Positions 32,504-50,490 of a stretch of DNA of 64,000 nucleotides are shown here, in pieces. How positions within the stretch are numbered: the first letter of the stretch is position 1; every line of letters begins with the position of its first letter. Below the pieces are notes generated by a model, which saw only the letters and a list, made by a program, of their open reading frames with translations, had not been told where the DNA came from and ran no database searches. The position numbers were made by a program, and so were the translations under genes. The DNA comes from the human T2T-CHM13v2.0 reference genome, Homo sapiens: NCBI RefSeq assembly GCF_009914755.1, contig NC_060926.1; one strand, given 5' to 3'.

Positions 32504-35500
32504 ATGACAGGATCAAATTCGCACATAACAATACTAACCTCAAATGTAAATGGGCTAAATGCTCCAATTAAAAGACACAGACTGGCAAATTGGATAAAGA
32601 GTCAAGACCCATCAGTGTGCTGTATTCAGGAAACCCATCTCACGTGCAGAGACACACATAGGCTCAAAATAAAGGGATGGAGGAAGATCTACCAAGCAAA
32701 TGGAAATCAAAAAAAGGCAGGGGTTGCAATCCTAGTCTCGGATAAAACAGACTTTAAAACAACAAAGATCAAAAGAGACAAAGAAGACCATTACATAATG
32801 GTAAAGGGATCAATTCAACAAGAAGAACTAACTATGCTAAATATATATGCACCCAATACAGGAGCACCCGGATTCATAAAGCAAGTCCTTAGTGACCTAC
32901 AAAGTGACTTAGACTCCCACACAATAATAATGGGAGACTTTAACACCCCACTGTCAACATTAGACAGATCAACGAGACAGAAAATTAACAAGGATATCCA
33001 AGAATTGAACTCAGCTCTGCACCAAGTGGACCTAATAGACATCTACAGAACTCTCCACCCCAAATCAACAGAATATACATTCTTTTCAGTACAACACCAC
33101 ACCTATTCCAAAATTGACCACATAGTTGGAAGTAAAGCACTCCTCAGCAAATGTAAAAGAACAGAGATTATAACAAACTGTCTCTCAAACCACAGTGCAA
33201 TCAAACTAGAACTTGGGATTAAGAAACTCACTCAAAACCGCTCAACTACATGGAAACTGAACAACCTGCTCCTGAATGACTACTGGGTACATAACGAAAT
33301 GAAGGCAGAAATAAAGATGTTCTTTGAAACCAACGAGAACAAAGACACAACATACCAGAATCTCTGGGACACATTCAAAGCAGTGTGTAGAGGGAAATTT
33401 ATAGCACTAAATGCCCACAAGAGAAAGCAGGAAAGATCTAAAATTGACACCCTAACATCACAATTAAAAGAACTAGAGAAGCAAGAGCAAACACATTCAA
33501 AAGCTAGCAGAAGGCAAGAAATAACTAATATCAGAGCAGAACTGAAGGAAATAGAGACACAAAAAACCCTTCAAAAAATTAGTGAATCCAGGAGCTGTTT
33601 TTTTGAAAAGATCACCAAAATTGATAGACCGCTAGCAAGACTAATAAAGAAGAAGAGAGAGAAGAATCAAATAGATGAAATAAAAAATGACAAAGGGGAT
33701 ATCACCACTGATCCCACAGAAATACAAACTACCATCAGAGAATACTATAAACACTTCTACGCAAATAAACTAGAAAATCTAGAAGAAATGGATAAATTCC
33801 TTGACACATACACTCTCCCAAGACTAAACCAGGAAGAAGTTGAATCTCCAAATAGACCAATAACAGGCTCTGAGATTGAGGCAATAATTAATACCTTACC
33901 AACCAAAAGAAGTCCAGGACCAGATGGATTCACAGTCGAATTCTACCAGAGATACAAGGAGGAGCTGGTACCATTCCTTCTGAAACTATTCCAATAAATA
34001 GAAAAAAAGGGAATCCTCCCTAACTCATTTTATGAGGCCAGCATCATCCTGATACCAAAGCCTGGCAGAGACAAAACAAAAAAAAAAGAGAATTTTAGAC
34101 CAATATCCTTGATGAACATTGATGCAAAAATCTTCAATAAAATACTGGCAAACTGAATCCAGCAACACATCAAAAAGCTTATCCACCATGATGAAGTGGG
34201 CTTCATCCCTGGGATGCAAGGCTGGTTCAACATATGAAAATCAATAAACATAATCCAGCATATAAACAGAACCAAAGACAAAAACCAGATGATTATCTCA
34301 ATAAATGTAGAAAAGGCCTTTGACAAAATTCAACACCCCTTCATGCTAAAAACTCTCAATACATTAGGTATGGATGGGACATATCTCAAAATAATGAGAG
34401 TTATCTATGACAAACCCACAGCCAATATCATACTGAATGGACAAAAACTGGAAGCATTCCCTTTGAAAACTGGCACAAGACAGGGATGCCCTCTCTCACC
34501 ACTCCTATTCAACATAGTGTTGGAAGTTCTGGCCAGGGCAATCAGGCAGGAGAAGGAAATAAAGGGCATTCAATTAGGAAAAGAGGAAGTCAAATTGTCC
34601 CTGTTTGCAGATGACATGATTGTATATCTAGAAAACCCCATCGTCTCAGCCCAAAATCTCCTTAAGCTGATAAGCAAATTCAGCAAAGTCTCAGGATACA
34701 AAATCCATGTGCTAAAATCACAAGCATTCTTATACACCAATAACAGACAAACAGAGAGCCAAATCATGAGGGAACTCCCATTCACAATTGCTTCAAAGAG
34801 AATAAAATACCTAGGAATCCAACTTACAAGGGATGTGAAGGACCTCTTCAAGGAGAACTACAAACCACTGCTCAATGAAATAAAAGAGGATACAAACACA
34901 TGGAAGAACATTCCATGCTCATGGATAGGAAGAATAAATATCGTGAAAATGGACATACTGCCTAAGGTAACTTATAGATTCAATGCCATCCCCATCAAGC
35001 TACCAATGACTTTCTTCATGGAATTGGAAAAAACTACTTGAAAGTTCATATGGAACCACAAAAGAGTCCACATTGCCAAGTCAATCCTAAGCCAAAAGAA
35101 CAAAGCTGGAGGCATCACGCTACCTGACTTCAAACTATATTACAAGGCTACAGTAACCAAAACAGCATGGTACTGGTACCAAAACAGAGATATAGACCAA
35201 TGGAACAGAACAGAGCCCTCAGAAGTAATGCCACATATCTACAACTATCTGATCTTTGACAAACCTGAGAAAAACAAGCAATGGGGAAAGGATTCCCTAT
35301 TTAATAAATGGTGCTGGGAAAACTGGCTAGCCATATGTAGAAAGCTGAAACTGAATCCCTTCCTTACACCTTATACAAAAATTAATTCAAGATGGATTAA
35401 AGGCTTACATGTTAGACCTAAAACCATCAAAAACCCTAGAAGAAAACCTAGGCAATACCATTCAGGACATAGCCATGGGCAAGGACTTCCTGTCTAAAAC

Positions 35501-36332
35501 ACCAAAAGCAATGGCAACAAAAGCCAAAATTGACAAATGGGATCTAATCAAACTAAAGAACTTCTGCACAGCAAAAGAAATCACCATCAGAGTGAACAGG
35601 CAACCTACAGAATGGGAGAAAATTTTGGCAACGTACTCATCTGACAAAGGGCTACTATCCAGAATCTACAATGAACTCAAACAAATTTACAAGAAAAAAA
35701 CAACCCCATCAAAAAGTGGGCAAAGGATATGAACAGACATTTCTCAAAAGAAGACATTCATGCAGCCAAAAGACACATGAAAAAATACTCATCATCACTG
35801 GCCATCAGAGAAATGCAAATCAAAACCACAATGAGATACCATCTCACACCAGTTAGAATGGCGATCATTAAAAAGTCAGGAAACAACAGGTGCTGGAGAG
35901 GATGTGGAGAAATAGGAACACTTTTACACTGTTGGTGGAACTGTAAACTAGTTCAACCATTGTGGAAGTTGGTGTGGCAATTCCTCAGGGATCTAGAACT
36001 AGAAATACCATTTGACCCAGCCATCCCATTACTGGGTATATACCCAGAGGATTATAAATCATGCTGCTATAAAGACACATGCACACGTATGTTTATTGCG
36101 GCACTATTCACAATAGCAAAGACTTGGAACCAACCCAAATGTCCAACAATGATAGACTGGATTAAGAAAATGTGGCACATATACACCATGGAATACTATG
36201 CAGCCATAAAAAAAGGATGAGTTCATGTCCTTAGTAGGGACATGGATGAAGCTGGAAACCATCATTCTCAGCAATCTATCGCAAGGACAAAAAACCAAAC
36301 ACCACATGTTCTCACTCATAGGTGGGAATTGA
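32504..36332 (+). pseudogene. L1 ORF2; first 497 codons open (EN domain), then stops and frameshifts in RT
   Basis: ORF 32504-33997 (497 aa); FADD motif in 34289-35041; C-terminal fragments 35228-36220. Confidence 0.95.
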
Positions 36333-48013: not shown

Positions 48014-48029
48014 TGATCCTTATATTTTA

Positions 48030-50490
48030 TTTATTTTATTTTATTTTTTATTATACTTTAACTTTCAGGGTACATGTGCACAACGTGCAGGTTTGTTACA
48101 TATATATACATGTGCCATGTTGGTGTGCTGCACCCGTTAACTCCTCATTTAGCATTAGGTATATCTCCTAATCCTATCCCTCCCCCCTCCCCCTACCCCA
48201 CAACAGGCCCCAGTGTGTGATGTTCCCCTTCCTGTGTCCATGTGTTCTCATTGTTCAGTTCCCACCTATGAGTGAGAACATGCAGTGTTTGGTTTTTTGT
48301 CTTTTGCGATAGTTTGCAGAGAATGATGGTTTCCAGCTTCATCCATATCCCTACAAAGGACATGAACTCATCATTTTTTATGGATACATAGTATTCCATG
48401 GTGTATATGTGCCACATTTTCTTAATCCAGTCTATCATTGTTGGACATTTGGATTGGTTCCAAGTCTTTGCTATTGTGAATAGTGCTGCAATAAACATAC
48501 GTGTGCATGTGTCTTTATAGCAGCATGTTTTATACTCCTTTGGGTATATACCCAGTAATGGGATGGCTGGGTCAAATGGTATTTCTAGTTCTAGATCCCT
48601 GAGGAATCGCCACACTGACTTCCACAATGGTTGAACTAGTTTACAGCCCCACCAACAGTGTAAAAGTGTTCCTATTTTTCCACATCTTCTCCAGCACCTG
48701 TTGTTTCCTGACTTTTTAATGATCGCCATTCTAACTGGTGTGAGATGGTATCTCATTGTGGTTTTGATTTGCATTTCTCTGATGGCCAGTGATGATGAGC
48801 ATTTTTTCATGTGTCTTTTGGCTGCATAAATGTCTTCTTTTGAGAAGTGTCTGTTCATATCCTTAGCCCACTTTTTGATGGGGTTGTTTGTTTTTTTCTT
48901 GTAAATTTGTTTGAGTTCATGGTAGATTCTGGGTATTAGCCCTTTGTCAGATGAGTAGATTGCAAAAAGTTTCTCCCATTCTGTAGGTTGCCTGTTCACT
49001 CTGATGGTAGTTTCTTTTGCTGTGCACAAGCTCTTTAGTTTAATTAGATCCCATTTGTCAATTTTGGCTTTTGTTGCCATTGCTTTTGGTGTTTTAGACA
49101 GGAAGTCCTTGCCCATGTCTATGTCCTGAATGGTATTGCCTAGGTTTTCTTCTAGGGATTTTATGGTTTTAGGTCTAACATGTAAGTCTTTAATCTATCT
49201 TGAATTAATTTTTGTATAAGGTGTAAGGAAGGGATTCAGTTTCAGCTTTCTACATATGGCTAGCCAGTTTTCCCAGCACCATTTATTAAATAGGGAATCC
49301 TTTCCCCATTGCTTGTTTTTCTCAGGTTTGTCAAAGATCAGATAGTTGTAGATATGTGGCATTATTTCTGAGGGCTCTGTTCTGTTCCATTGGTCTATAT
49401 CTCTGTTTTGGTACCAGCACCATGCTGTTTTGGTTACTGTAGCCTTGTAATATAGTTTGAAGTCAGGTAGCGTGATGCCTCCAGCTTTGTTCTTTTGGCT
49501 TAGGATTGACTTGGCAATGTGGACTCTTTTGTGGTTCCATATGAACTTTCAAGTAGTTTTTTCCAATTCCATGAAGAAAGTCATTGGTAGCTTGATGGGG
49601 ATGGCATTGAATCTATAAATTACCTTGGGCAGTATGTCCATTTTCACGATATTTATTCTTCCTATCCATGAGCATGGAATGTTCTTCCATGTGTTTGTAT
49701 CCTCTTTTATTTCCTTGAGCAGTGGTTTGTAGTTCTCCTTGAAGAGGTCCTTCACATCCCTTGTAAGTTGGATTCCTAGGTATTTTATTCTCTTTGAAGC
49801 AATTGTGAATGGGAGTTCACTCATGATTTGGCTCTCTGTTTGTCTCTTATTGGTGTATAAGAATGCTTGTGATTTTAGCACATGGATTTTGTATCCTGAG
49901 ACTTTGCTGAAGATGCCTATCAGCTTAAGGAGATTTTGGGCTGAGACGATGGGGTGTTCTAGATATACAATCATGTCATCTGCAAACAGGGACAATTTGA
50001 CTTCCTCTTTACCTAATTGAATACCCTTTATTTCCTTCTCCTGCCTGATTGCCCTGGCCAGAACTTCCAACACTATGTTGAATAGGAGTGGTGAGAGAGG
50101 GCATCCCTGTCTTGTGCCAGTTTTCAAAGGGAATGCTTCCAGTTTTTGCCCATTCAGTATGATATTGGCTGTGGGTTTGTCATAGATAACTCTTATTATT
50201 TTGAGATACATCCCATCCATACCTAATGTATTGAGAGTTTTTAGCATGAAGGGGTGTTGAATTTTGTCGAAGGCCTTTTCTGCATCTATTGAGATAATCA
50301 TGTGGTTTTTTTCGTTGGTCCTGTTTATATGCTGGATTACGTTTATTGATTTTCGTATGTTGAACCAGACTTGCATCCCAGGGTTGAAGCCCACTTGATC
50401 ATGGTGGATAAGCTTTTTGATGTGCTGCTGGATTTGGTTTGCCAGTATTTTATTGAGGATTTTTGCGTCGATGTTCATCAGGGATATTGG
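48030..50490 (-). mobile_element. 5'-truncated L1PA4-like LINE-1 (2.46 kb)
   Basis: ORF2 RT and C-terminal ORFs 49549-50478 and 48193-49116; exact TSD tgatccttatatttta at 48014-48029 and 50491-50506; canonical TT/AAAA site. Confidence 0.97.

What the first reader, a model, noticed from the sequence alone, without database searches (positions are those of the whole stretch)
34362..50228. Inverted L1 pair 11.5 kb apart shares private mutations including the same nonsense codon: a gene-conversion tract
Seen: copy A (31027-36551, +) and copy B (48030-50490, -) each have their own TSD, so they are separate insertions. Yet across A 34362-35490 / B 50228-49101 they share more than a dozen changes relative to the L1PA consensus as I recall it. 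These include LNTLGMDG (cons. LNKLGIDG), RVIYDK (RAIYDK), KIHVLKSQ (KINVQKSQ), DTNTWKN (DTNKWKN), VKMDILP (VKMAILP), FFMELEKTT* ([14 protein letters not shown] at A 35039-35041, B 49549-49551), GKDFLSK (GKDFMSK), and further nucleotide changes (gaaccacaaaagagtccac, tatattac, ctgaatccc). Outside the tract (A 34100-34320 and most of 35500-36400) the copies differ independently. Established: an ORF2 stop abolishes cis retrotransposition, so a shared stop is unlikely to come from a common active source. Inference: ~1.1 kb ectopic gene conversion, or repeated crossover, between neighbouring inverted L1s. Residual differences inside the tract suggest the event is old or patchy.
Basis: partly seen in the sequence, partly recalled or inferred. 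Interest (0 to 1): 0.85.

Follow-up and report, generated by a model that had tools for sequence, protein, structure and literature searches.

The report
Gene conversion between neighbouring inverted L1s
Two old, broken L1 retrotransposon copies lying head-to-head-inverted about 12 kb apart in an MBD5 intron have copied roughly 1.1 kb of sequence from one to the other, an ordinary but unusually clear example of DNA repair homogenising nearby repeats.

Summary
L1 copy A (31027-36551, +) and copy B (48030-50490, -) differ at 21 of 1154 sites (1.8%) across A 34336-35490. They differ at 19 of 236 (8.1%) and 50 of 1049 (4.8%) sites in the flanks. Eighteen of 19 rare variants shared by A and B lie inside the tract. 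A 56-mer carrying six of them matches only A and B in the whole genome. B is A's best genome-wide match for the tract, yet neither copy is in the other's top 40 for the 3' flank. B has a perfect 16-bp target-site duplication, so no inversion accompanied the exchange. Non-crossover ectopic gene conversion is the best explanation.

Three caveats apply.
- The TGA stop is not private. Six of 51 other sampled copies carry it.
- The tract is patchy.
- A third L1, 178 kb downstream, shares a nested ~0.4-kb tract with A, which suggests repeated local exchange with A as the hub.

The kind is known; this is a new instance. Dating and direction need ape orthologues, which these tools do not hold.

The parts
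31027..36551 (+). L1 copy A, 5'-truncated (about 5.5 kb), with an A-rich tail
   Evidence: Sequence read. NCBI repeat mask 31025-36568. ORF2 reverse-transcriptase domain RVT_1, E = 3.4e-30, in the translation of 34238-35038.
31019..31026 (.). Putative 5' target-site duplication of A (8 bases, A-rich). Its partner is at 36552-36559.
   Evidence: It is short and low in complexity, so it is weak evidence on its own.
36552..36559 (.). Putative 3' target-site duplication of A
48030..50490 (-). L1 copy B, 5'-truncated (about 2.46 kb). It aligns to A 34099-36556.
48014..48029 (.). 3'-side target-site duplication of B (16 bases), identical to 50491-50506
50491..50506 (.). 5'-side target-site duplication of B (16 bases)
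   Evidence: A perfect match to 48014-48029 shows that B's two flanks are still in their original arrangement, so there has been no net inversion.
34336..35490 (+). Conversion tract in A, from the first to the last shared rare variant. The outer limits are 34322-35548.
49101..50254 (-). Conversion tract in B, the counterpart of A 34336-35490
   Evidence: Coordinates from the alignment.
34877..35393 (+). Cleanest core of the tract. A and B differ at 5 of 509 sites, and 11 shared rare variants lie here.
35039..35041 (+). Shared in-frame TGA in ORF2 of A, about 70 codons after the RT domain match. Its counterpart in B is 49549-49551.
49549..49551 (-). The same TGA in B
34418..34875 (+). Sub-tract in which A is closest, genome-wide, to a third L1 ('C', chr2 contig C2:149013111-149013568, outside the window)
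47725..48013 (-). Alu inserted into the outer edge of B's 3'-side target-site duplication. It is not part of the conversion.
   Evidence: The bases TGATCC are repeated at 47719-47724 and 48014-48019.

Best explanation
A and B are separate L1PA-type insertions in opposite orientation. After both had accumulated private mutations, a DNA break or gap in one copy was repaired using the other as template. This was homologous recombination without crossover, that is non-allelic or ectopic gene conversion. It copied about 1.0-1.2 kb of ORF2 (the end of the RT domain and the region after it), together with the mutations the donor had already collected, including an in-frame TGA. Both copies then kept mutating independently.

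The transfer was either discontinuous or happened in several shorter events. A carries the union of all the shared variants. It also shares a nested tract of about 0.4 kb with a third L1 178 kb away. A is therefore most likely the donor, or hub, of repeated local exchanges.

Shown: the identity step, the clustering and genome-wide uniqueness of the shared variants, and B's intact target-site duplication. Inferred: the repair mechanism, the direction, the number of events and the age. The age is roughly one fifth to one third of the elements' own age.
For: 1. Identity step. A and B differ by 1.82% in the tract against 8.05% and 4.77% in the flanks. Maximum chi-square is reached by 1 of 1000 permutations.
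2. Nearest relatives, on a combined alignment with 58 other genomic copies.
- In the tract, 0 of 46 other copies are closer to A or to B than the two are to each other. The nearest other copy is at 3.38% from A and 3.73% from B.
- In the left flank, 39 of 41 are closer to A than B is.
- In the right flank, 37 of 56 are closer to A than B is.
- The tract-to-flank divergence ratio of A-B is 0.34, below all 820 control pairs, whose minimum is 0.36.
3. Rare shared variants. Of 19 rare variants shared by A and B (12% or less of other copies), 18 lie in the 1155-base tract and 1 lies in the 1287 bases outside it. Private variants show the reverse: A has 7 inside and 21 outside, B has 9 inside and 30 outside.
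4. Genome-wide searches.
- With the tract as query, B is the best hit (98%, 1934 bits; the next is 97%, 1863 bits; 40 of 8416 candidates were scored).
- With A's 3' flank as query, B is not among the 40 scored of 8365.
- With B's 3' flank as query, A is not among the 40 scored of 10260.
- A 56-mer (35015-35070) with six shared variants has only 4 places in the genome at up to 3 mismatches: A and B at 0 mismatches and two others at 3.
- A 71-mer (34890-34960) is 100% identical only in A and B.
5. B has a perfect 16-base target-site duplication. A and B have different truncation points.
6. Elevated non-allelic conversion between nearby transposable-element copies, and intrachromosomal L1 conversion, are in print (passages of PMC6598467, PMC8230782 and PMC1920257).
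Against: 1. No outgroup (ape orthologue) could be examined, so the pre-conversion state, the direction and the date are not shown.
2. The tract is not clean. B-private variants cluster at 34567-34744, and B lacks A's rare variants at 34678, 34771 and 35225. With sub-region 34418-34875 as query, B ties for ranks 15-18 of the 40 scored. One simple 1.1-kb event is therefore too neat a description.
3. The tract-to-flank ratio of 0.34 is only just below the lowest control pair at 0.36.
4. The genome search scores only the best 40 candidates per query, so other carriers of single variants can be missed.
5. The shared variants have an odd spectrum. Eight of 18 are A:T>C:G, against 77 of 554 singleton variants in other copies (p = 0.0016, post hoc). 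Plain neutral accumulation in a donor does not predict this.
6. A's own target-site duplication is only 8 A-rich bases.
Confidence: 0.85

Rival explanations
1. A, B and C were each converted by a further L1 donor, so there was no direct A-B exchange. That donor would be lost, absent from this assembly, or since diverged.
For: Three copies share nested subsets of the variants. The spectrum of the shared variants is unusual, as might be expected of an odd donor.
Against: No other locus in the genome carries the variant combinations. A holds the union of all shared variants, so a donor already present explains the pattern without another element.
Confidence: 0.07
2. There was no conversion. A and B descend from one unusual source element, perhaps a defective one mobilised in trans, that already carried the variants and the stop.
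For: The TGA alone is present in 6 of 51 other sampled copies and in C. L003 on contig C14 carries 5 of the 18 variants.
Against: Variants inherited from a source should run along the whole element. Here 18 of 19 lie in the tract, and the private-mutation density drops about threefold inside it. The flanks of A and B are no closer to each other than to random family members. The 56-mer combination exists nowhere else.
Confidence: 0.05
3. The pattern is chance, regional variation in mutation rate, or an assembly artefact.
For: The tract region evolves somewhat more slowly than the flanks in control pairs (median ratio 0.76).
Against: Permutation gave 1 of 1000. Of 820 control pairs, 0 had a ratio as low. 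Sixteen shared variants are absent or nearly absent in 51-58 other copies. Residual divergence of 1.8% between the two tracts is not what a collapsed or copied assembly region would give.
Confidence: 0.03

Closest known systems
Non-allelic (ectopic, interlocus) gene conversion between neighbouring transposable-element copies, best documented for Alu pairs
   Same: There is a discrete tract of raised identity, with non-diagnostic mutations shared by two independently inserted copies that lie close together. Passages of PMC6598467 and PMC8230782 report elevated conversion for Alus within about 10 kb, citing Aleshin and Zhi 2010.
   Different: Here the partners are L1 ORF2 fragments and the tract is about 1.1 kb, longer than a whole Alu. 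The copies are inverted and the tracts lie about 13.6 kb apart. A third partner lies 178 kb away.
L1-L1 gene conversion (Burton et al. 1991; Tremblay, Jasin and Chartrand 2000; locus NCLI34 in Sen et al. 2007)
   Same: An L1 segment is replaced from another L1 copy. Sen et al. propose an intrachromosomal conversion that placed a 377-bp L1 segment whose best match lies on the same chromosome (passage of PMC1920257). Tremblay et al. showed that a break in a LINE is repaired from endogenous LINEs (cited in the same passage).
   Different: I saw those papers only as passages or as titles in reference lists (Burton 1991 as a title in PMC5640379). None concerns this locus. Here both partners are identified and the residual divergence allows a relative date.
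Concerted evolution of inverted-repeat arms (palindromes, for example on sex chromosomes)
   Same: Inverted copies on one chromatid exchange sequence without crossover. Repeated exchange is suggested by the patchy tract and by the third partner.
   Different: Here the two arms arose as separate insertions. Homogenisation covers only part of the homology and stopped long ago (1.8% divergence). That palindrome arms are kept near-identical is recalled; only a search listing for PMC11168930 was seen.

Membership tests
Non-allelic gene conversion tract (non-crossover) | The two copies have independent origins and are not one duplicated segment | tested here: met
   B has its own perfect 16-base target-site duplication. 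The 5' truncation points differ: A starts at 31027 and B starts at the equivalent of A 34099. The flanking DNA does not align. A's own duplication is only 8 A-rich bases.
Non-allelic gene conversion tract (non-crossover) | A discrete internal segment is significantly more alike than the flanking homology | tested here: met
   Divergence is 1.82% against 8.05% and 4.77%. Maximum chi-square was reached by 1 of 1000 permutations. None of 820 control pairs had as low a ratio.
Non-allelic gene conversion tract (non-crossover) | Shared derived variants are confined to the segment and absent from other family members | tested here: met
   Of 19 rare shared variants, 18 lie in the tract. The 56-mer and the 71-mer are unique to A and B. 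Exceptions: the TGA occurs in 6 of 51 other copies, and a nearby third copy has a subset.
Non-allelic gene conversion tract (non-crossover) | The flanks are not exchanged, that is no inversion between the inverted repeats | tested here: met
   Both halves of B's target-site duplication flank B. The 3' parts of A and B remain 4.8% apart.
Non-allelic gene conversion tract (non-crossover) | The pre-conversion state is visible at the orthologous locus of an outgroup species | not testable with these tools
   No primate genome other than the window's own assembly is held.
L1 (LINE-1) retrotransposon copies | ORF2 reverse-transcriptase homology, an A-rich 3' tail, 5' truncation and a target-site duplication | tested here: met
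   RVT_1 at E = 3.4e-30. Tails and duplications were read. Thousands of dispersed relatives at 94-97%. The subfamily (L1PA number) was not assigned because no repeat library is held.

The most novel reading that the evidence does not exclude
The shared variants may not simply be old donor mutations. The excess of A:T>C:G changes (8 of 18 against a 14% background) would then be the footprint of error-prone repair synthesis during repeated exchange among three nearby L1 copies. Back-conversion would have spread those errors to both inverted partners. The locus would be a fossil record of conversion-associated mutagenesis in the primate germline.
Probability: 0.1. Interest if true: 0.6.

Novelty: new member of a known kind. 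Interest (0 to 1): 0.28.

Why it matters
This is a clean, datable example of ectopic conversion between L1 fragments. Such conversion is far less documented for L1 than for Alu.

It has practical consequences. Divergence-from-consensus ages and subfamily calls for these two copies are distorted inside the tract. A shared nonsense codon cannot be read as evidence of a common source. Inverted L1 pairs that recombine are also candidate substrates for inversions, here inside MBD5, the 2q23.1 dosage-sensitive gene, although no inversion has occurred in this assembly. I know of no functional consequence for MBD5.

Tried and rejected
1. Direction from mutation load. B's rare-variant load is uniform (30 of 1285 in the flanks, 27 of 1155 in the tract), while A's is 21 of 1285 against 25 of 1155. 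That weakly hints B was the donor, but it is not significant, and it conflicts with the third-copy pattern, which favours A.
2. Direction from subfamily haplotypes. Of 59 intermediate-frequency sites, most are CpG-type and too noisy to use.
3. Sampling relatives of B's flank. Variant frequencies in B's own sublineage were therefore not measured.
4. An 81-mer at 34330-34410 gave no discrimination: B at 96%, seven others at 95%. A and B differ at three sites there.
6. Khan et al. 2006 (PMC1356131), wanted for L1PA ages and rate, is not held.
7. A first MAFFT run timed out and was repeated with faster settings.
8. Literature. The searches found no paper on this locus. The search 'MBD5' plus 'gene conversion' returned 4 papers, none about it judging by title and abstract.
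Full report
**What is there.** The window is an intron of MBD5 in the T2T human assembly. 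Copy A (31027-36551, + strand) is a 5'-truncated L1 of about 5.5 kb. Copy B (48030-50490, - strand) is a 2.46-kb 3' fragment that aligns to A 34099-36556 at 95.9% identity. The translation of A 34238-35038 matches the reverse-transcriptase family RVT_1 (E = 3.4e-30). The region at issue is therefore the end of the RT domain of ORF2 and the sequence after it.

B is flanked by a perfect 16-base target-site duplication at 48014-48029 and 50491-50506. A has only an 8-base A-rich one at 31019-31026 and 36552-36559. An Alu (47725-48013, - strand) later inserted at the outer edge of B's 3'-side duplication.

**Checking the observation.**
- The pairwise alignment gives 19 differences in 236 sites (8.05%) for A 34099-34335, 21 in 1154 (1.82%) for 34336-35490, and 50 in 1049 (4.77%) for 35491-36540.
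- A maximum chi-square scan with free breakpoints picks 34400-35540. Its value of 25.9 is reached by 1 of 1000 permutations. Fisher's test of tract against flanks gives p = 2.5e-6.
One string is in frame only in B, because A has a 1-base insertion at 35428.

**Outgroups from the same genome.** I collected L1 copies from the window's own genome in two ways.
- The first sample was 33 loci selected by similarity to A's tract: 28 and 5, after dropping L004, a duplicate of L027.
- The second sample was 28 loci selected by similarity to A's 3' flank, which is blind to the tract. These came, after dropping L068 for a large insertion.
- The combined alignment has 58 loci. Also dropped were L055, a duplicate of L012, and L035 and L008, which had broken alignments.
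- I used the commonest state among these copies only to polarise variants.

Results from these samples:
- Nineteen sites have A = B with a state found in at most 12% of the others. Eighteen of them lie in the tract and one (36443) lies outside.
- Sixteen of them are in at most 3 of 33 tract-selected copies and at most 1 of about 20 flank-selected copies: 34336, 34362, 34372, 34401, 34706, 34713, 34899, 34936, 34953, 35019, 35020, 35059, 35067, 35140, 35354 and 35490.
- Private variants behave the opposite way. A has 7 inside the tract and 21 outside; B has 9 inside and 30 outside.
- In the tract, none of 46 other copies is closer to A or to B than they are to each other (nearest 3.38% and 3.73%). 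In the left flank 39 of 41 are closer to A than B is, and in the right flank 37 of 56 are.
- The A-B tract-to-flank ratio of 0.34 is below all 820 control pairs. The lowest control is close, at 0.36.

**Genome-wide uniqueness.**
- With the tract as query, B is the top hit (98%, 1934 bits). The next is 97% and the rest 96%, with 40 of 8416 candidates scored.
- With A's 3' flank as query, B is not among the 40 scored of 8365. With B's 3' flank, A is not among the 40 scored of 10260.
- A 56-mer (35015-35070) spanning six shared variants has four places in the genome at up to 3 mismatches: A and B exactly, and two loci with 3 mismatches each.
- A 71-mer (34890-34960) is 100% identical only in A and B.

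**The stop codon.** The G that makes the TGA is present in 6 of 33 tract-selected copies (L003, L007, L022, L029, L032, L036) and in 0 of 21 flank-selected copies. The first sample is enriched by how it was chosen. The stop still recurs in copies that lack the other variants, so it is not a private mark. The case rests on the other variants and on the identity step.

**No inversion.** Crossover between inverted repeats would leave B with one of A's flanks. B's two 16-base duplications match perfectly, and the 3' parts of A and B remain 4.8% apart. The exchange was therefore non-crossover, or an even number of crossovers.

**Fine structure and a third partner.** A 64-mer (34680-34743) is 100% identical at A, at B and at a third place, contig C2:149013373-149013436. 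That place is 178 kb downstream on the same strand as A and outside the window. I fetched 2.6 kb there as L073.

It is another 5'-truncated L1 ('C'). It starts at the equivalent of A 34238, carries a 316-base insert, and is 94.5% identical to A overall.

- In A 34418-34875, A and C differ at 5 of 458 sites (1.1%), against 112 of 1587 (7.1%) elsewhere. Maximum chi-square is reached by 1 of 300 permutations.
- C has 3 private variants there against 70 elsewhere. That ratio, 0.15, is below all 41 control loci, which range from 0.21 to 1.46.
- With that 458-base stretch as query, C is A's best match in the genome (99%, 804 bits). B only ties for ranks 15-18 of the 40 scored (786 bits).
- C carries all four of A's rare variants in the stretch: 34678, 34706, 34713 and 34771. 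The match at 34771 is doubtful because C also differs at 34772.
- Beyond the stretch, C also carries 34925, the TGA base, 35225 and 35354. It lacks 13 of the A-B variants.
- B lacks 34678, 34771 and 35225, and has a cluster of private changes at 34567-34744.

The A-B tract is therefore patchy. The parts that look converted are:
- 34336 to about 34441;
- a micro-patch around 34706-34713;
- a clean core at 34877-35393, with 5 differences in 509 sites;
- possibly 35490.

A holds the union of all the shared variants. That is most simply explained if A was the donor, or hub, in several events. This is inference.

**Mechanism.** Homology-directed repair of a lesion in one L1, using a nearby L1 on the same chromosome as template and resolved without crossover, accounts for every feature. 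Non-allelic conversion between nearby transposable-element copies, strongest within about 10 kb, is reported for Alus (passages of PMC6598467 and PMC8230782). An intrachromosomal L1 conversion, and repair of a broken LINE from endogenous LINEs, are cited in PMC1920257 (passage). [quoted passage not shown]

**Relative date.** Divergence per copy is about 0.9% in the whole tract, 0.5% in the core and about 2.7% in the flanks. The main exchange therefore happened at about one fifth to one third of the elements' age.
- L1PA3 to L1PA6 are placed between 7.6 and 26.8 million years by a passage of PMC4083085 that cites Khan.
- I could not assign the subfamily, and the substitution rate I would use is recalled.
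- Any absolute date (a few to about nine million years) is therefore rough.

**Unexplained.** Eight of the 18 shared tract variants are A:T>C:G transversions, against 77 of 554 singleton variants in the same region of the other copies. The binomial p is 0.0016, but the test is post hoc over six classes. The overall transversion share is not unusual (11 of 18 against 51%).

**Verdict.** The process is known, so this is a new, well-resolved instance rather than a new kind of thing. No paper on this locus turned up in the searches. Supplements were not consulted.

Noticed in passing
L073 (contig C2:149012700-149015300), outside the window, 178 kb downstream of A: A third 5'-truncated L1 on the same strand as A. 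It shares a tract of about 0.4 kb with A (5 differences in 458 sites against 7.1% elsewhere). It also carries the same TGA. A 316-base insert sits at L073:1587-1902.
   Followed up: partly
window 34336-35490 (shared A/B variants): Eight of 18 shared rare variants are A:T>C:G transversions, against 14% of singleton variants in other copies (p = 0.0016, post hoc). The cause is unknown.
   Followed up: partly
L003 (contig C14:56512791-56515991): An L1 on another chromosome carries 5 of the 18 A/B variants (34362, 34925, 35019, the TGA base and 35059). It was picked as the best of 2380 candidates for a 201-base query, so the way it was selected may explain much of this.
   Followed up: no
window 35040 and loci L007, L022, L029, L032, L036: The same in-frame TGA in ORF2 recurs in several dispersed L1 copies that lack the other shared variants. 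L022, L032 and L036 have a different local background: they differ from A/B at 35070 and 35074. This points to a recurrent change or a small sublineage with a stop.
   Followed up: partly
window 47725-48013: An Alu (- strand) inserted exactly at the outer edge of B's 3'-side target-site duplication. It duplicated the first six bases of that duplication (TGATCC at 47719-47724 and 48014-48019).
   Followed up: no
window 35473: A and B each carry a different non-majority base at one site where 56 of 57 other copies agree. That means two independent hits at one position inside the tract.
   Followed up: no
L013 and L016 (contig C23:50535777-50539902 and C23:50516886-50521011): Two closely similar L1 copies lie 19 kb apart on the same strand of the X-chromosome contig. 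They may be a tandem duplication or another locally homogenised pair.
   Followed up: no
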